Source: Gemmatimonadota bacterium (GTDB lineage: Bacteria; Gemmatimonadota; Gemmatimonadetes; Palauibacterales; Palauibacteraceae). Taken from it: a stretch of 64,000 nt of DNA. Position 1 is the stretch's first letter. Each line of letters starts with the position of its first letter. Shown one piece after another: positions 11,385-18,016 of this stretch. The DNA is taken from the NCBI GenBank assembly GCA_965116475.1, contig OZ220691.1:2688001-2752000 (forward strand). The letters run 5' to 3'. Below the pieces are notes generated by a model. It saw only the letters and a program-made list of their open reading frames with translations, made no database searches and was not told the origin of the DNA. The position numbers were made by a program, and so were the translations under genes.

Positions 11385-13334
11385 ATGGTCCGTCGGGGCA
11401 TGGCCAACAGGATCGCTGACGGAAACCGGGGGCGGCGGCCGGCGGGACCGGTGAGCCCCGCGCACCGCTGGGAGCGCGCCTTGGCGCCTTGCGTCCACGC
11501 GGGCCTCGCCCTGCTCCTGCTCATCCCCCTCGTGTGGACTCCGAACACCTACTTCCCGTTTGCGGTGGGCAAGGCGGTCTACGCGCGTTCGCTGATCGCG
11601 GTGCTGTTCGCGCTCTGGGCGCCGCTCGCCCTGGCGCGGCCGAGCTGGAGGCCCCCCGGAACGGTGTTGTTGGGAGTCCTGGCCGCCGGGCTCGCGGTGG
11701 CCGGCCTGTCGGCCTGGTTCGGGGTGAGCCCCCAGCGCAGCCTGTGGACCACCTACACGCGGATGGAGGGGCTCGTGGGTGCCATCCACTGGACGGCGCT
11801 CTTCATGGTTCTGGCGGGGACGTTGCGCACCCGGGCCGGCTGGACGAGGCTTCTCAAGGCGAACGTCGCGGTCGGGCTCGCCGTCGCCCTGATCGCGATG
11901 GCTCGTTTTCAATTCCCGGAACTGCCGCTCTTCGGCCTGCCGTCCGAGGCGCGCTACCCGCGCATCAGCGCGACGACCGGCAATCCGACGTTCCTCGGCG
12001 GATACCTCCTGGTGATCGCGCTTGTCGCCGCGGGTTTCCTGGTGCGGTCCTTCATCCGGCCCGGGAGCGGCGGGGCGGCCTGGACCGCGCGGCTTCCCTG
12101 GGCGTTGACGGCCCTCGCGGCCGTCTTCGCGCTGGTCCTCACCGGCTCGCTCGGATCCCTTGCGGGACTCGGGACGGGCGCCGCCGCCGCCGCGGGACTC
12201 TACGCGTGGCTGGGACCCACCGCGCGCTCGCGCGGGACCGGGCGCGGGGCGCTGCTGGTGCTGGGCGGCGCGGGCGCGGTGCTGGCCGTCGTGATCGTGG
12301 TCCGTGCCGCCGCCCCGCCTCCCGCGGCCGATGTACCCGGGCGCGCGTTCGAGAGCGTCATGCTGGAGCGGGCGACGAGCGCCGAGCGGATCGGCGCCAC
12401 CTTGGGGCGCCGGCTACGCAACTGGGAGAGCGGTCTCGCGGCGTTTGCGGAACGCCCGCTCACCGGGTGGGGACCGGGCAACTACTTCGTGGGCTCCGCC
12501 CGCCACATCTCCGAGCCCGACGGGCCCCAACTGGTCCGCGACCACGCCCACAACATGCTCATCGAGGAGGCGGCGACCAAAGGCGTTCTCGGCCTCGCGG
12601 CCTACCTGGCGCTCTGGGGCTGGACGTTCGTCCTGCTGATCCGAGCGGCCCGCGCCGCGGGCCCCCGCGACCAGGCGCTGCTCATCTTCGCGGCCGCCGC
12701 ACTGTTCGGGTGGTTCGTGCAGACGCAGAGCCTGTTCTACAGCGCGGCCAACTGGCTGCAGCAGATCCTGCTGCTCGGCTTCGCCGCGCACTGGGAGGCC
12801 CGGCTGCGTCCCGGCGGCGGCGGAGTGCGCCGATGGCTCTCGGCACGGGCGGCGCCGCTTCGCCATCCGGCGGCGCGGATCGCGGCGGGCGCGCTGGTGC
12901 TGGCCGCCGCCGCGGGTTCGCTGGCATCGAGCCGCGCCGTCCACGCCGGCGCCGCCGCGATCGACCGGGCCGAGCACGAGGGAGAGTTTTTGGCCGACAT
13001 GGAGCGCTCGATCGACGCCTTCGAGCCGCTCGCCAACGGGCCGCGCGTCATCCTCATCAACAACGTGGCGGCGAACTGGCCGGTGCTCTCGCGCGACCAC
13101 GCGGCCGAGGCGGAGAGGCTGCTGGCGTGGATGAACACCGAGGCGCCGGCCGCGCTCGCCGCCGAGCCGGAGAGCTGGGTGGTCCACCATGCGCTGGCGC
13201 GCCTGTACCGGGTGGTGGCGGAGACGGAGCCCGGATACGCCGAACGCGCGGAGCGCCACTACGCCCGATCGCTTGAGCTGGCGCCGAACCTCGACCCGCT
13301 GGAGCCGCCCGTCCAGTCGCCGCGGGCGCGATGA
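11385..13334 (+). CDS. O-antigen ligase (Wzy_C)/O-oligosaccharyltransferase-like membrane protein with helical C-terminal extension
   Basis: Many TM helices; RISATTGNPTFLGGYL; R...WESGLAAFAERPLTGWGPGNY; HAHNMLIEEAATKGVLG. Confidence 0.85.
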   Translation: MVRRGMANRIADGNRGRRPAGPVSPAHRWERALAPCVHAGLALLLLIPLVWTPNTYFPFAVGKAVYARSLIAVLFALWAPLALARPSWRPPGTVLLGVLAAGLAVAGLSAWFGVSPQRSLWTTYTRMEGLVGAIHWTALFMVLAGTLRTRAGWTRLLKANVAVGLAVALIAMARFQFPELPLFGLPSEARYPRISATTGNPTFLGGYLLVIALVAAGFLVRSFIRPGSGGAAWTARLPWALTALAAVFALVLTGSLGSLAGLGTGAAAAAGLYAWLGPTARSRGTGRGALLVLGGAGAVLAVVIVVRAAAPPPAADVPGRAFESVMLERATSAERIGATLGRRLRNWESGLAAFAERPLTGWGPGNYFVGSARHISEPDGPQLVRDHAHNMLIEEAATKGVLGLAAYLALWGWTFVLLIRAARAAGPRDQALLIFAAAALFGWFVQTQSLFYSAANWLQQILLLGFAAHWEARLRPGGGGVRRWLSARAAPLRHPAARIAAGALVLAAAAGSLASSRAVHAGAAAIDRAEHEGEFLADMERSIDAFEPLANGPRVILINNVAANWPVLSRDHAAEAERLLAWMNTEAPAALAAEPESWVVHHALARLYRVVAETEPGYAERAERHYARSLELAPNLDPLEPPVQSPRAR

Positions 13335-14014
13335 ATGCGCCGGGGGAGTTCTTCTTCCAGATCGGCTTCAGGCGGTGCGGAACCACCGCCATCGCCGCCT
13401 TCTTGAACCGGTGCGGGATCCCGTGCGTGCATCACGACCGGGGGCGCCTGGCGCGCCGCATGCGCGACAACCTCGCGGCCGGACGCCGGCCGCTCGAGGG
13501 CTACGATCACCGCTACCGGGCGTTCGCGAACATGGACTTCCAGTCGCCCGGGGACCACTTCGACGGGTTCAAGCACTTCGAGGTGCTGCGCCGGGCTTAC
13601 GGGGGCCGGTTCATCCTGAACACCCGGCCGGTGGAGCACTGGATCCGGAGCGTCACGCGCCGGGCCGGACGCCGGCGTCTGCGGAGGGCCTGGATCGCGC
13701 GCTTCGGCACCGACGACCCGGAGCGCGTCGCCGCCCTGTGGCGCACGGAGTGGGAGGCGCACCACCGCCGAGTGCGCGAGAGCCTGCCGCCCGAGATCCT
13801 TCTGGTCTTCGACATCGAGTCGGACGCGCCGGAGCGGCTCTGCGACTTCGTGGGCGTCCCCCGCTCGTGCGCCCGCTTCTACAGGCTGGAGAACCCGTCG
13901 CCCGGCCCCTTCGGCGAAGCCCTCGACGCCTGCCTGCCCGTGGCGGTCAAGCGGCTCGCGCCCGGCCGGATCAAGTATCCGGTGAAGAAGCTGCTCCGGA
14001 AGCGGACCCGCTGA
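13331..14014 (+). CDS. PAPS-dependent sulfotransferase family protein (copy 1)
   Basis: 5'-PSB loop IGFRRCGTTA; 3'-PB-like FILNTRP..HW..S; ATGA overlap with upstream gene. Confidence 0.75.
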   Translation: MNAPGEFFFQIGFRRCGTTAIAAFLNRCGIPCVHHDRGRLARRMRDNLAAGRRPLEGYDHRYRAFANMDFQSPGDHFDGFKHFEVLRRAYGGRFILNTRPVEHWIRSVTRRAGRRRLRRAWIARFGTDDPERVAALWRTEWEAHHRRVRESLPPEILLVFDIESDAPERLCDFVGVPRSCARFYRLENPSPGPFGEALDACLPVAVKRLAPGRIKYPVKKLLRKRTR

Positions 14015-14022
14015 GGCGCCCG

Positions 14023-16547: not shown

Positions 16548-17249
16548 TCAGCGACCGCGCAGGAGCCGCTTGAGCGGCAGCTTCCACCGCTCCGGGATGC
16601 GCCGCTTCACGGCGCGCGGCACGAGCGCTCCCACCAGGCGGCCCGCCGCGTTCATCGACGGGTTCTCGACCCGCCAGTGGCGCGCGCACGAGCGCGGCAT
16701 CCCGACGAAGTCGCACAGCCGCTCTGGCGGGTCCGACTCGATGTCGAAGACCAGCAGGCGCTCGGCGGGGATCTCGGCGACGACCCGGCGGTGATGCTCC
16801 TCCCACTCGGCCCGCCAGCGGTCCGCCACCTCGGCCGGGTCGTCGGTGCCGAAGCGCTGCCGGTGGTTGGCGAGGCGGCGGCGGCGCAGGCGGCGGGCGT
16901 CGTGCGACATGCGGCTCCGCAGCCAGTGCTCGCGGGGGCGGGTGTTGAGGATGAACTTGCCGCCGTACGCCCGGTCGAGGGCCGCGTACTCCTTGAACGC
17001 GTCGAAGTAGTCGTCCGGCGCGTTGTAGTTCATGTTGGTGAACGCGCGGTACCGGTGATCGTAGCCCTCGAGGGGCCGGCGCCCGGCCGCGAGGTTGGCG
17101 CGCATCCGGCGCGCGAGCCGACCGCGGTCGTAGTGGACGCACGGGATCCCGCAGCGGTTAAGGAACGCCCAGATGGCCGTGGTCCCGCACTTCGAGAACC
17201 CGATCTGGAAGTAGCGGTCCGCCGCGTCGCGGGCGGGCGGCGGCATCAT
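16548..17249 (-). CDS. Sulfotransferase family protein (copy 2, paralog of 13331-14014)
   Basis: FQIGFSKCGTTAIWAFLNRCG; FILNTRPREHWLRS; ATG 17249 overlaps TGA of the sugar transferase. Confidence 0.75.
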   Translation of the reverse strand: MMPPPARDAADRYFQIGFSKCGTTAIWAFLNRCGIPCVHYDRGRLARRMRANLAAGRRPLEGYDHRYRAFTNMNYNAPDDYFDAFKEYAALDRAYGGKFILNTRPREHWLRSRMSHDARRLRRRRLANHRQRFGTDDPAEVADRWRAEWEEHHRRVVAEIPAERLLVFDIESDPPERLCDFVGMPRSCARHWRVENPSMNAAGRLVGALVPRAVKRRIPERWKLPLKRLLRGR

Positions 17250-18016
17250 GCCGGCTCCCGGTCCCGCCGCCGCGGCCGCAACGCGGCGCGCGCGACCCTG
17301 CGAAGGCAGAGCAGAATGAGCCTCAAGTCCAGCCACGGGCTCATGGTCTCGATGTAGCACTCGTCGCACTCGAGCTTGCGGCGCGGATGCGATCCGTAGG
17401 GCCCGAGCGCCTGCGCGAGGCCCATGATGCCCGGGCGCACCCGGAGCCGGCTCGAGAACCCCGGCACCTCGCGCTCGATGCGGGCCGCGAGTTCCGGGCG
17501 CTCGGGCCGGGGGCCCACCAGGCTCATCTCGCCCCTCAGGACGTTGACGACCTGCGGCAACTCGTCGATGTGCAGCCGGCGCAGCACCCGCCCCACGCGG
17601 GTCGCGCGCGGATCGGGCTCGCCCGCCCAGACCGGTCCGGTGAGACGCTCCGCCCCCACCACCATCGTGCGGAACTTGACGACACGGAACGGGCGCCCGC
17701 CCCGTCCGAGCCGGGTCTGCCGGTAGAACACCGGGCCGGGGCCGTCGAGCCGGATGGCGAGCGCCGTCAGCCCGAACAGCAGGACCCACGCCGGCAGGAG
17801 AAGCACGGCGGCAGCCGCGACCAGGCACAGGTCGAACGGTCGCTTGTAGCGCTCGCGGCCGGCATCGCCGCCTGGCCCAGCCCCGTCAGCCGGTCCCGCC
17901 GCGCCCCGGCCTCTCTGCCCGGCCCCGCGAGGTCCCGCACCCCTCCGATCTCCTCCTTCGGCGGGAAATAAACTGAAAATAAATGTCAATTCATGTCTGT
18001 TAATGAACAATAACAT
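17246..18016 (-). CDS. Initiating phosphoglycosyl (sugar) transferase, Bac_transf family; start uncertain
   Basis: KRPFDL...GPVFYRQTRLG...KFRTM; IDELPQVVNVLRGEMSLVGPRPERP; RPGIMGLAQ. Confidence 0.88.
   Translation of the reverse strand: MLLFINRHELTFIFSLFPAEGGDRRGAGPRGAGQRGRGAAGPADGAGPGGDAGRERYKRPFDLCLVAAAAVLLLPAWVLLFGLTALAIRLDGPGPVFYRQTRLGRGGRPFRVVKFRTMVVGAERLTGPVWAGEPDPRATRVGRVLRRLHIDELPQVVNVLRGEMSLVGPRPERPELAARIEREVPGFSSRLRVRPGIMGLAQALGPYGSHPRRKLECDECYIETMSPWLDLRLILLCLRRVARAALRPRRRDREPA

What the first reader, a model, noticed from the sequence alone, without database searches (positions are those of the whole stretch)
11385..18016. Minimal sulfated-glycan assembly and transfer cassette embedded between giant adhesin genes
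Seen in sequence: 12 bp after the adhesin 1 stop begins a tightly coupled run of Wzy_C ligase/OTase, sulfotransferase, GT2 and MurJ-like flippase. It converges on a phosphoglycosyl transferase and second sulfotransferase, which are divergent from adhesin 2. No Wzz/Wzc/Wza, LPS-core or nucleotide-sugar genes are in the window. Established: PGT + GT + flippase + Wzy_C is the complete logic of Und-PP-linked glycan synthesis and en bloc transfer, as in PglL/PilO/TfpW-neighbour-type O-OTases that sit beside their target genes. Inference: a short (about two sugars) sulfated glycan is attached to the very Ser/Thr-rich flanking adhesins. Dedicated sulfated protein O-glycosylation is rarely described in bacteria.
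Basis: partly seen in the sequence, partly recalled or inferred. Interest (0 to 1): 0.85.

Follow-up and report, generated by a model that had tools for sequence, protein, structure and literature searches.

The report
Sulfated-glycan cassette beside giant adhesins
A compact six-gene operon for building and handing over a short sulfated sugar chain sits between giant surface-adhesin genes, and the same pairing recurs in uncultured bacteria of many phyla, which suggests, without proving, that the adhesins themselves are decorated with sulfated sugars.

Summary
Window 11385-18016 holds Wzy_C, Sulfotransfer_4, GT2 and MurJ on the + strand, converging on a second Sulfotransfer_4 and a small phosphoglycosyl transferase. 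Stops and starts overlap or nearly abut, and giant Sec-exported Calx-beta adhesins lie on both sides.

The Wzy_C protein belongs to a distinct ~650-aa family with a WaaL-like core, a 13th membrane helix and a helical, probably periplasmic, C-terminal domain. I examined 79 related loci from 9 phyla:
- 40 carry the PGT and/or GT2.
- 23 carry a sulfotransferase.
- 25 carry a large Ser/Thr-rich surface protein: 20 of the 40 with the cassette against 5 of the 39 without.

None of the 12 closest loci has a Wzz, Wza or Wzc gene. The tree shows cross-phylum transfer.

The family lacks the PglL motifs, and a relatedness-aware test of adhesin linkage is underpowered. Sequence alone cannot separate an O-oligosaccharyltransferase from a polymerase or a ligase.

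My best reading, at about 0.4, is that a sulfated undecaprenyl-linked glycan is transferred to the neighbouring adhesins. I rate this a new variant of a known kind, and it needs experimental proof.

The parts
4023..6410 (-). One-polypeptide GAF-PAS histidine kinase, receiver and OmpR-type DNA-binding regulator, divergent from adhesin 1. Probably regulates the island.
   Evidence: Pfam domains. Full-length orthologues lie beside Wzy_C-family genes in L005 (59%), L065 (54%) and L008 (51%); Pfam shows the same kind of GAF-HisKA-HATPase-receiver kinase in L005.
6549..11372 (+). Adhesin 1, 1607 aa. Signal peptide, choice-of-anchor R domain, four Calx-beta domains, S+T 20.5%. Candidate acceptor.
   Evidence: The stop lies 12 bp before the Wzy_C start.
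11385..13334 (+). Wzy_C-family membrane enzyme, 649 aa. WaaL-like 12-helix core, a 13th membrane helix and a ~130-aa helical C-terminal domain. Proposed transferase for the Und-PP-linked glycan.
   Evidence: Pfam PF04932. AF2 model pLDDT 87.5. Foldseek top hit WaaL 7tpg, E 1.7e-6. Invariant R343, P358, G361, G363, H389 and E394 in 28 sequences.
13331..14014 (+). Sulfotransferase 1, 227 aa, no signal peptide.
   Evidence: PF17784, E 5.4e-12. AF2 model pLDDT 86.7. All 19 Foldseek hits at E<=1e-3 are sulfotransferases; the top hit is Cpz8 with PAP. The invariant G12, C16, G17, T18 block (-style alignment) I equate, from memory, with the 5'-phosphosulfate-binding loop.
14023..14997 (+). GT2 glycosyltransferase, about 324 aa, with a hydrophobic C-terminal segment.
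   Evidence: PF13641 and PF00535. Sub-threshold NCBIfam matches to MftF, EpsD, HpnI, PgaC and NodC. Start codon read from the sequence. Orthologues 50-64% identical in related loci.
14994..16547 (+). MurJ-family flippase, 517 aa, translationally coupled to the GT2.
   Evidence: PF03023, E 3e-92. TIGR01695 at 339.7 bits, above its cut-off. A 57%-identical copy lies in the same cassette in L005. A Wzx-type flippase takes its place in 12 loci.
16548..17240 (-). Sulfotransferase 2, 230 aa, 67% identical to sulfotransferase 1.
17246..18016 (-). Small single-domain phosphoglycosyl transferase (Bac_transf). Start uncertain; ATG 18016 is likely.
   Evidence: PF02397, E 9e-56. TIGR03025 at 245.6 bits, below its cut-off. 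Sequence read. Orthologues 55-72% identical in most related loci, 45-48% in two Dehalococcoidia loci.
18103..25947 (+). Adhesin 2, about 2614 aa. Signal peptide, N-terminal domain of unknown family, choice-of-anchor R, Ig-like repeats, Calx-beta domains. Candidate acceptor.
26086..36119 (+). Two further surface proteins: LRR + Calx-beta (26086-28923) and a 2336-aa Calx-beta giant (29109-36119). Both share the adhesins' C-terminal module in whole or in part.

Best explanation
The cassette builds a short sulfated glycan on undecaprenyl phosphate and hands it to the neighbouring adhesins.

Shown by family assignment:
- The small PGT puts a sugar-1-phosphate on the lipid carrier.
- The GT2 adds at least one more sugar.
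- Two paralogous sulfotransferases are present. The PAPS-dependent class is supported by the fold match.
- A MurJ-family protein is the flippase.

Inferred:
- The sulfotransferases add sulfate while the intermediate still faces the cytoplasm. They have no signal peptide, and PAPS is cytoplasmic.
- The Wzy_C enzyme uses the conserved Arg/His site of its large periplasmic loop to transfer the glycan en bloc from Und-PP to an acceptor outside the cytoplasm.
- Its extra C-terminal helical-repeat domain is carried to the periplasm by a 13th membrane helix.
- The acceptors are the giant, Sec-exported, Ser/Thr-rich Calx-beta and cadherin-like adhesins encoded beside it. That would make it an O-oligosaccharyltransferase of a class distinct from PglL, PglS, TfpO and TfpM.
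- It would be closest in layout to the S-layer glycosylation clusters of Bacillales. There a Wzy_C enzyme, with a TPR motif in WsfB, sits with a PGT and glycosyltransferases beside the target gene.

The whole unit (regulator, adhesins and cassette) moves horizontally between phyla.

My confidence is about 0.8 that this is a sulfated Und-PP-glycan pathway, and about 0.4 that the adhesins are the acceptor.
For: - Gene families and tight coupling in the window.
- Sulfotransferase fold: all 19 Foldseek hits at E<=1e-3 are sulfotransferases. A phosphate-binding-type motif is invariant in 18 sequences.
- WaaL fold with invariant R343, P358, G361, G363 and H389, aligned to the WaaL motif. Schulz 2013 lists the matching Arg/His residues as shared by WaaL and PglL (PMC3643930, passages).
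- Adhesin linkage: an adhesin-like ORF lies within 10 kb in 20 of 40 cassette-bearing loci against 5 of 39 without the cassette (naive Fisher p 0.0006). It is present in 10 of the 15 loci with at least 47% Wzy_C identity.
- The giants carry Calx-beta, cadherin, fn3, He_PIG or PKD domains.
- An adhesin gene immediately followed by Wzy_C on the same strand also occurs in a separate clade, Spirochaetia L029 and L052.
- Several genomes carry two or more copies, some each beside its own giant: L002/L006 and L001/L030.
- No Wzz, Wza or Wzc family appears among 101 ORFs of the 12 closest loci or 36 window ORFs.
- At least 25 family members stand alone among housekeeping genes. From memory, that is usual for general ligases and OTases and unusual for repeat-unit polymerases.
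- The family occurs in 19-20 Dehalococcoidia loci. Its nearest Atlas clusters are Wzy_C+TPR proteins, commonest in Actinomycetota, Chloroflexota and candidate-phyla-radiation (CPR) lineages (a lead only). From memory, these lineages lack LPS.
- The adhesins have N-terminal signal peptides, so they pass through the periplasm.
- A Wzy_C enzyme with a C-terminal TPR is described for the predicted S-layer O-OTase WsfB and for PglL (PMC2943079, passage).
- Sulfation follows the family: Sulfotransfer_4 in 11 loci and Sulfotransfer_2 in 15, Sulfotransfer_3 in L060, and APS kinase directly upstream of Wzy_C in 3 Dehalococcoidia loci.
Against: - No glycoprotein has been observed. Everything about the acceptor is inferred from context.
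- The family lacks the PglL_A and Wzy_C_2 motifs (0 of 28), matches no NCBIfam model at E<=0.01, and has only WaaL as a solved relative.
- The gene set is equally that of a Wzx/Wzy repeat-unit locus.
- 20 of 40 cassette-bearing loci have no adhesin-like ORF within 10 kb.
- With relatedness taken into account, only 9 independent contrasts exist. The adhesin goes the same way in a mean of 3.5, the other way in 0.2 and is unchanged in 5.4, giving a median p of 0.25.
- Cadherin and fn3 genes are reported as generally enriched and laterally transferred in sponge-associated MAGs (PMC8163846, passages). If these MAGs share such a niche, co-location could simply reflect a shared mobile island.
- Within the window, only 1 of the 3 adhesin paralogues with the same 3' end is followed by Wzy_C.
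- P0064 reads as Wzy_C with a sulfotransferase fused to its C-terminus. If that fusion is real, it argues against a periplasmic C-terminal domain.
- TPR assignment for the C-terminal domain is weak: Pfam TPR hits in 3 of 28 members at E of about 0.007, and none for the window's domain alone.
- The closest solved sulfotransferases act on natural products and drugs, not on lipid-linked glycans.
Confidence: 0.4

Rival explanations
1. This is a Wzx/Wzy-type locus for a sulfated surface polysaccharide (O-antigen, capsule or exopolysaccharide). The Wzy_C protein polymerises a sulfated, roughly disaccharide, repeat unit in the periplasm. Ligation or export is encoded elsewhere. The adhesins are neighbours only because surface and colonisation genes travel together in one mobile island.
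For: - PGT + GT + flippase + Wzy_C is the standard content of such loci.
- The trio PGT, GT2 and Wzy_C is what is conserved: 40 of 79 loci have the PGT and/or GT2. Flippase type (Wzx in 12 loci, MurJ in 1) and sulfotransferase family vary, as expected if polymerase and repeat unit co-evolve.
- A cyanobacterial survey treats PF04932 proteins as 'Wzy/WaaL' without separating them (PMC4594306, passages).
- Half of the cassette-bearing loci lack an adhesin nearby.
- The richer clade-B cassettes carry extra GT2s and an 876-aa protein of unknown family.
Against: - No Wzz, Wzc or Wza family appears in 12 of 12 closest loci or in the window.
- At least 25 family members stand alone among housekeeping genes.
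- In two Spirochaetia loci the gene follows a Calx-beta ORF directly, with no PGT or flippase detected nearby.
- An extra periplasmic helical-repeat domain is not a known polymerase feature (from memory).
- 32-60% identity across 9 phyla is unusually high for Wzy proteins (from memory).
Confidence: 0.25
2. The Wzy_C protein is a WaaL-type ligase. It attaches the short sulfated glycan to lipid A-core, giving a sulfated lipooligosaccharide or semi-rough LPS.
For: - The only solved relative by sequence and by fold is the Cupriavidus WaaL: phmmer E 4e-7, profile E 6e-16, Foldseek E 1.7e-6 with TM 0.65 on the target.
- The shared Arg/His motif.
- The window organism is a diderm, with a TonB-dependent receptor and OM beta-barrel proteins.
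Against: - The family is present in 19-20 Dehalococcoidia loci, and its look-alike clusters are commonest in Actinomycetota, Chloroflexota and CPR. From memory, none of these makes LPS.
- There are no LPS-core genes in the window or in the 12 closest loci.
- It has a 13th helix and a 130-aa extra domain that the solved WaaL lacks (413-residue chain against 649 aa).
- Two to three copies occur per genome in several MAGs.
Confidence: 0.12
3. The MurJ gene is the organism's housekeeping lipid II flippase that merely sits in this operon. The glycan either stays cytoplasmic or is exported by another route, so the 'complete pathway' reading is over-interpreted.
For: It passes NCBIfam's MurJ equivalog cut-off, 339.7 against 235.55 bits. 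No second MurJ can be looked for in a 64-kb window.
Against: - Its start overlaps the GT2 stop by 4 bp.
- A 57%-identical MurJ sits in the same cassette in an alphaproteobacterial MAG, L005. That is far closer than I would expect, from memory, for vertically inherited MurJ across phyla.
- In 12 related loci a Wzx-type flippase occupies the equivalent place.
Confidence: 0.1

Closest known systems
S-layer glycosylation (slg) clusters of Geobacillus stearothermophilus and Paenibacillus alvei, with the predicted O-OTases WsaB and WsfB
   Same: A PGT, glycosyltransferases, a transporter and a Wzy_C-domain transferase are encoded in one cluster beside the structural gene of the surface protein to be glycosylated. 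WsfB carries a C-terminal TPR motif, and wsaB has a TPR protein next to it (PMC2943079, passages).
   Different: - Those are monoderm Bacillales with S-layer proteins as targets and an ABC-transporter route in G. stearothermophilus.
- No sulfotransferases are mentioned in the passages I read.
- Here the carrier is a diderm, the candidate targets are giant Calx-beta/cadherin-like adhesins, the flippase is MurJ or Wzx, and there are two sulfotransferases.
- Sequence relationship to WsaB and WsfB was not tested, because no reference sequence was available.
PglL, PglS, TfpO (PilO) and TfpM O-oligosaccharyltransferases
   Same: Wzy_C domain with conserved Arg and His. En bloc transfer from Und-PP to Ser/Thr in the periplasm. 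The substrate gene is often adjacent and co-oriented (PMC3643930; PMC9829042; PMC12645811).
   Different: - PglL_A and Wzy_C_2 motifs are absent (0 of 28).
- No pilin gene is nearby.
- There is an extra 13th helix and a helical C-terminal domain.
- The glycan genes are bundled with the enzyme and include sulfotransferases.
- Activity is unproven.
WaaL O-antigen ligase (Cupriavidus metallidurans structure 7TPG)
   Same: Best sequence and fold match. The R-x14-P-x2-G-x-G and H-A-H-N motifs align.
   Different: 19% identity. About 240 extra residues. No LPS-core context. The family occurs in lineages without LPS.
Wzx/Wzy-dependent sulfated exopolysaccharide loci, for example cyanobacterial sulfated EPS (recalled, not checked here)
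   Same: Sulfotransferases are embedded in a lipid-linked repeat-unit pathway with a flippase and a Wzy_C-type protein.
   Different: From memory, those loci include chain-length and export components (Wzc/Wza types). None was found here or in the 12 closest loci.

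Membership tests
PglL/PglS-type O-oligosaccharyltransferase | Wzy_C (PF04932) domain with the conserved Arg...His catalytic residues | tested here: met
   PF04932 in 28 of 28 family members. R343 and H389 are invariant and align to the WaaL motif. Residue equivalences are listed in PMC3643930.
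PglL/PglS-type O-oligosaccharyltransferase | PglL_A (PF15864) and/or Wzy_C_2 (PF11846) motifs flanking Wzy_C. The accession numbers are recalled; the motif names are from PMC3643930 and PMC12645811. | tested here: not met
   Neither family is listed for any of 28 members at E<=1.
PglL/PglS-type O-oligosaccharyltransferase | Transfers Und-PP-linked glycan to Ser/Thr of a protein | not testable with these tools
   Needs reconstitution or glycoproteomics.
TfpO/TfpM pilin O-oligosaccharyltransferase | Gene lies immediately downstream of its pilin substrate gene | tested here: not met
   No pilin family appears among the window ORFs. The gene does lie 12 bp downstream of a different surface protein, adhesin 1.
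WaaL O-antigen ligase | WaaL fold and motif | tested here: met
   7tpg is the top and only significant hit by sequence, profile and fold.
WaaL O-antigen ligase | Acceptor is lipid A-core, so the carrier makes LPS and the gene usually sits with core genes | tested here: not met
   No LPS-core family in the window or in 12 related loci. There are 19-20 family loci in Dehalococcoidia. That this class lacks LPS is recalled. Acceptor chemistry itself is not testable here.
Wzy repeat-unit polymerase (Wzx/Wzy pathway) | Encoded with a PGT, GTs and a flippase for one repeat unit | tested here: met
Wzy repeat-unit polymerase (Wzx/Wzy pathway) | Works with a chain-length regulator and, in diderms, an export or ligation partner (Wzz/Wzc, Wza, WaaL) | tested here: inconclusive
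   None found within the window or within 10 kb in the 12 closest loci. Such genes can lie elsewhere in a genome, and whole genomes were not available.
S-layer-type glycosylation cluster (WsaB/WsfB) | Wzy_C transferase with a C-terminal TPR (or adjacent TPR protein), clustered with a PGT and GTs beside the target gene | tested here: inconclusive
   Cluster layout is met. The C-terminal domain is all-helical. Pfam TPR hits are weak, 3 of 28 members, and none for the window's domain alone. Atlas neighbours carry TPR families in 12-76% of members. No sequence comparison with WsfB was made.
PAPS-dependent sulfotransferase (Sulfotransfer_4, PF17784) | Family match above cut-off, sulfotransferase fold and a phosphate-binding loop | tested here: met
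   46.5 and 44.8 bits against a cut-off of 22.8. Foldseek top hit is Cpz8 with PAP, E 3.8e-8, and 19 of 19 hits at E<=1e-3 are sulfotransferases. G12, C16, G17 and T18 are invariant in 18 sequences. The substrate is not testable.
MurJ lipid II flippase | Equivalog-level match | tested here: met
   TIGR01695 at 339.7 bits against a cut-off of 235.55. Whether it flips lipid II or the cassette's glycan cannot be tested here. Context favours the cassette.

The most novel reading that the evidence does not exclude
A previously undescribed class of protein O-oligosaccharyltransferase: a WaaL-like core, a 13th helix and a periplasmic helical-repeat domain. It travels with its own PGT, GT2, flippase and sulfotransferases, and turns giant cadherin and Calx-beta adhesins into sulfated glycoproteins, in effect bacterial proteoglycan-like molecules. 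The unit has spread by horizontal transfer through uncultured bacteria of at least nine phyla, possibly to mimic or engage host sulfated glycans.
Probability: 0.3. Interest if true: 0.85.

Novelty: new variant of a known kind. Interest (0 to 1): 0.62.

Why it matters
A word search of a 2025 review of bacterial O-glycosylation finds 'sulf' only in 'sodium dodecyl sulfate' (PMC12645811). My searches for sulfotransferase together with O-antigen ligase, sponge symbionts or bacterial glycoproteins found nothing on this family.

If the adhesins are the acceptors, three things follow:
- It would add a fifth class of O-linking oligosaccharyltransferase.
- It would give the first dedicated route to sulfated bacterial glycoproteins.
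- It would offer a mechanism for how uncultured, probably host-associated, bacteria tune giant adhesins.

Even if the product is a polysaccharide, the finding still defines a mobile sulfated-glycan module. It is tied to three sulfotransferase families and to APS kinase, and it is shared across phyla.

The hypothesis is cheap to test by reconstitution in E. coli.

Tried and rejected
- NCBIfam gave no hit for the Wzy_C protein or either sulfotransferase at E<=0.01.
- Pfam gave nothing at E<=1 for the Wzy_C C-terminal 130 aa, the adhesins' shared C-terminal 269 aa, the adhesin 2 N-terminal domain or the 876-aa clade-B protein. The Atlas search of that 876-aa protein gave only scores below 0.8.
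- The search for longer homologues, looking for fusions, returned one protein, P0121. It is a family member carrying an in-frame tandem-repeat insertion, not a fusion.
- I first took two database 'fusions' as evidence of functional coupling: P0064 (Wzy_C + sulfotransferase) and P0103 (part MurJ + part Wzy_C). I then set them aside. They keep the window's gene order, and P0103 joins two truncated halves, so merged gene calls are the simpler reading.
- Literature searches for 'Rariloculaceae' and 'SgdX2' (which matched only grant numbers) led nowhere.
- The terminator and promoter scan found nothing beyond chance inside the cassette: 3 terminator-like sites against 3.1 expected.
- The relatedness-aware test of cassette against adhesin was underpowered, with 9 contrasts and a median p of 0.25.
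- I did not run complex prediction. An enzyme with its substrate is a poor case for that tool, and a pass would not have moved my odds.
- I did not build a reference phylogeny against WaaL, PglL, PilO and Wzy, because no reference sequences other than the aligned stretch of PDB 7tpg were available.

Full report
**What is in the window.** The window is about 70% G+C. I picked real genes by third-position G+C and by family matches.

Between 11385 and 18016 there are six genes, each above Pfam's curated cut-off:
- a 649-aa Wzy_C protein
- a 227-aa Sulfotransfer_4 protein
- a GT2
- a 517-aa MurJ-family protein, which also passes NCBIfam's MurJ equivalog cut-off
- on the other strand, a second Sulfotransfer_4 protein and a small single-domain Bac_transf phosphoglycosyl transferase

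The junctions are those of an operon. There are 12 bp from the adhesin 1 stop to the Wzy_C ATG, two 4-bp stop/start overlaps and one 8-bp gap. My reading of the GT2 start is GTG 14023. The MurJ stop abuts the stop of the convergent sulfotransferase 2. No terminator-like site beyond chance lies inside.

Both flanking giants have N-terminal signal peptides, a choice-of-anchor R domain and Calx-beta domains, and 20-21% Ser+Thr against 6-11% in five other window proteins. More surface proteins with LRR, Calx-beta and Big_2 domains follow up to about 38 kb. Housekeeping genes begin at about 40 kb. None of the 36 window ORFs I scanned matched a Wzz, Wza, Wzc, LPS-core or nucleotide-sugar family.

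**The Wzy_C protein.** It has 129 database relatives of similar length, and the 120 listed are 38-98% identical. The nearest named one, at 84%, comes from a Gemmatimonadetes MAG.

An alignment of 28 sequences shows invariant R343, W347, G350, P358, G361, W362, G363, N366, H389 and E394. These align with the motif of the Cupriavidus WaaL. Schulz et al. list the corresponding Arg and His residues as shared by WaaL and PglL (PMC3643930, passages).

The AlphaFold model is confident, with pLDDT 87.5 and pTM 0.89. Its only significant match in the PDB is WaaL 7tpg, at E 1.7e-6 with TM 0.65 on the target; FtsW is next. The profile search gives the same single hit.

After the twelve-helix core comes an Arg-rich loop, one more hydrophobic helix (about residues 496-517) and a ~130-residue all-helical domain. 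By the positive-inside rule, and by analogy with WaaL topology, that domain should be periplasmic. This is an inference.

Pfam finds no PglL_A or Wzy_C_2 motif in any of the 28 members, and only weak TPR hits in 3. NCBIfam finds nothing. The Atlas's nearest clusters are all Wzy_C proteins of 590-800 aa. Many carry TPR families, and they are commonest in Actinomycetota, Chloroflexota and candidate-phyla-radiation lineages (a lead only).

**The other enzymes.**
- Sulfotransferases: the two are 67% identical. Eighteen family members share an invariant F-x2-G-x3-C-G-T block and further motifs. The ST1 model (pLDDT 86.7) matches only sulfotransferases at E<=1e-3 (19 of 19). The top hits are Cpz8 with PAP and SgdX2. 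Those enzymes act on natural products, so the glycan substrate here is inferred from context.
- GT2: it has a hydrophobic C-terminal segment. Its best, sub-threshold, NCBIfam matches are MftF, EpsD, HpnI, PgaC and NodC. From memory, some of these build oligomers, so the chain length is open and 'two sugars' is a minimum.
- PAPS supply: no PAPS-synthesis gene is in the window.

**Relatives elsewhere.** A scan of one genome per species found 180 stretches encoding a relative, and 79 loci were kept. By record title they come from MAGs of nine phyla:
- Pseudomonadota (Gamma- and Alphaproteobacteria)
- Spirochaetota
- Acidobacteriota
- Chloroflexota (Dehalococcoidia)
- Thermodesulfobacteriota
- Binatota
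- Nitrospirota
- Latescibacterota
- Gemmatimonadota

I searched the loci with the window's proteins and clustered all ORFs. I named the recurrent clusters with Pfam and built HMMs from them.

Counts within 10 kb, out of 79 loci:

| Feature | Loci |
|---|---|
| PGT | 28 |
| GT2 related to the window's (this HMM may also catch other GT2s) | 33 |
| PGT or that GT2 | 40 |
| Sulfotransfer_4 | 11 |
| Sulfotransfer_2 | 15 |
| Any of these sulfotransferases | 23 |
| Wzx-type flippase | 12 |
| MurJ (L005, 57% identical) | 1 |
| NAD-dependent epimerase | 22 |
| 829-aa GT2 | 17 |
| 876-aa protein of no known family | 17 |
| GDP-mannose pyrophosphorylase (Dehalococcoidia only) | 13 |

Immediate-neighbour annotation added two things. 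A Sulfotransfer_3 gene lies 31 bp upstream in L060. APS kinase lies directly upstream of the Wzy_C gene in three Dehalococcoidia loci. Sulfation therefore follows this family through three sulfotransferase families. Many loci, at least 25, show the gene alone among unrelated housekeeping genes.

**Linkage to adhesins.** I defined an adhesin-like ORF as at least 500 aa, with S+T at least 16% and Arg at most 7.5%.
- 25 of 79 loci have one within 10 kb: 20 of the 40 with the PGT or GT2 against 5 of the 39 without. The naive Fisher test gives an odds ratio of 6.8 and p 0.0006.
- Of the 15 loci whose Wzy_C is at least 47% identical, 10 have one. Two of the five misses are contigs of 4.5 and 9.6 kb. 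A third, L055, has a He_PIG/autotransporter ORF that failed my composition filter.
- Pfam on 101 ORFs of the 12 closest loci shows the giants to carry Calx-beta, cadherin, cadherin-like, fn3, He_PIG or PKD domains. It shows no Wzz, Wzc or Wza family.
- In Spirochaetia L029 and L052, a separate clade of the tree, a Calx-beta ORF ends 59-72 bp before the Wzy_C gene on the same strand.
- Several genomes hold two or more copies, some each beside its own giant: L002 and L006, and L001 and L030.

Against this, half of the cassette-bearing loci have no such neighbour. On the tree only 9 independent contrasts exist. The adhesin changes in the same direction in 3.5 on average, in the opposite direction in 0.2, and not at all in 5.4, giving a median p of 0.25. 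The association is consistent in direction but is not established once relatedness is taken into account.

**Horizontal transfer.** In a quick maximum-likelihood tree of 76 sequences, the window's protein sits (SH-aLRT 97) among four gammaproteobacterial sequences and one alphaproteobacterial sequence. A second cassette-bearing clade mixes Alpha- and Gammaproteobacteria, Acidobacteriota, Nitrospirota and Thermodesulfobacteriota on short branches.

The island's regulator travels too. The window's 795-aa GAF-PAS kinase/receiver/OmpR protein has full-length orthologues next to the Wzy_C gene in L005 (59%), L065 (54%, a Dehalococcoidia MAG) and L008 (51%).

Robbins et al. report that cadherin and fn3 genes are enriched and laterally transferred in sponge-associated MAGs (PMC8163846, passages). 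The taxon mix here reminds me of such communities, but I did not verify any habitat.

**Weighing the readings.** The pathway up to a flipped, sulfated Und-PP-glycan is well supported by family assignments and coupling, at about 0.8. What the Wzy_C enzyme does with it is not shown.

For transfer to the adhesins:
- the recurrent and sometimes immediate adjacency
- the absence of chain-length and export genes
- the stand-alone copies, which from memory is typical of general ligases and OTases and odd for polymerases
- the occurrence in lineages that from memory lack LPS
- the Sec signal peptides on the adhesins
- the extra helical domain
- the published precedent that the predicted S-layer O-OTase WsfB, and PglL, carry a C-terminal TPR and that slg clusters sit beside their target gene (PMC2943079, passage)

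Against it:
- there is no direct evidence
- the PglL motifs are absent, although TfpO and TfpM lack them too (PMC12645811, passages)
- the gene set is identical to a Wzx/Wzy locus
- the adjacency holds in only half of the cassette-bearing loci
- a database protein reads as Wzy_C fused C-terminally to the sulfotransferase, which would contradict the topology if real

I put the adhesin-glycosylation reading at 0.4, a sulfated polysaccharide polymerase at 0.25 and an LPS ligase at 0.12.

**Novelty.** My literature searches found no description of this family or of sulfated bacterial O-glycoproteins. A word search of a 2025 review of bacterial O-glycosylation finds 'sulf' only in 'SDS'. The layout is a variant of known cluster-encoded O-glycosylation systems. 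The sulfotransferases, the adhesin class, the enzyme's architecture and the cross-phylum spread are the new elements.

Noticed in passing
window 10563-11372, 25138-25947, 35310-36119 (C-termini of three giants); compare 28800-28923: Three giants end with the same ~270-aa module. It runs: Ser-rich linker, a dockerin-like stretch, a Cys...Cys-Gly-Gly motif, a short hydrophobic helix and an Arg cluster, which looks like a C-terminal sorting signal. It then continues in frame into a lipoprotein-like signal (hydrophobic stretch ending in Cys) and a ~110-aa domain. The LRR protein stops just after the Cys-Gly-Gly motif. No Pfam or NCBIfam match.
   Followed up: partly
window 9885-11375 vs 24451-25950 vs 34865-36122: The last ~1.5 kb of adhesin 1 is 94-97% identical in DNA to the 3' ends of adhesin 2 and the third giant. 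The repeat ends 3 nt past the adhesin 1 stop. The cassette plus adhesin 2 therefore lies between long direct repeats, which could mediate deletion, duplication or gene conversion.
   Followed up: partly
window 4023-6410 (-); L005 16025-18355; L065 12689-15055; L008 7255-9516: A single-polypeptide GAF-PAS histidine kinase, receiver and OmpR-type regulator is conserved at 51-59% identity beside Wzy_C-family genes in Alphaproteobacteria and Dehalococcoidia MAGs.
   Followed up: partly
window 18208-18666; L001 16921-17340; L002 13116-14495: The ~150-aa N-terminal domain of adhesin 2 has no Pfam match. It recurs, one to three copies at 32-37% identity, at the start of the cassette-adjacent giants in two gammaproteobacterial MAGs.
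   Followed up: partly
L026 9346-9978, L062 9265-9978, L065 9079-9687; L060 9185-9883: APS kinase (PAPS synthesis) lies directly upstream of the Wzy_C-family gene in three Dehalococcoidia loci. A Sulfotransfer_3 gene lies 31 bp upstream in a gammaproteobacterial locus.
   Followed up: no
L013 16987-19617 (-) and 16 other loci: An 876-aa protein with no Pfam or Atlas match is conserved in 17 loci of the richer 'clade B' cassettes. It occurs with an 829-aa GT2 and, in many of these loci, with Sulfotransfer_2 and/or Wzx.
   Followed up: partly
P0121 (database protein, residues ~560-1140): One family member carries about fifteen in-frame copies of a ~40-aa Arg/Gly/Pro-rich repeat, inserted between the 12th helix and the 13th. 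It looks like a repetitive DNA element read through.
   Followed up: no
L029 and L035 12107-14488 (-): In the Spirochaetia loci a PMT_2-family (GT-C) membrane glycosyltransferase lies just downstream of, and convergent with, the Wzy_C gene that follows a Calx-beta ORF.
   Followed up: no
window 38338-39075 (+) and 42861-44231 (-): A DDE transposase fragment (PF13701, partial) lies at the end of the surface-protein region. A DUF222/HNH endonuclease gene lies further on. The only tRNA is tRNA-Lys at 57767.
   Followed up: no
L028 15904-17619; L002 3810-4301; L034 20998-21498: Related loci also carry a SulP sulfate permease, a sulfatase fragment and an ankyrin-repeat protein near the cassette.
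   Followed up: no
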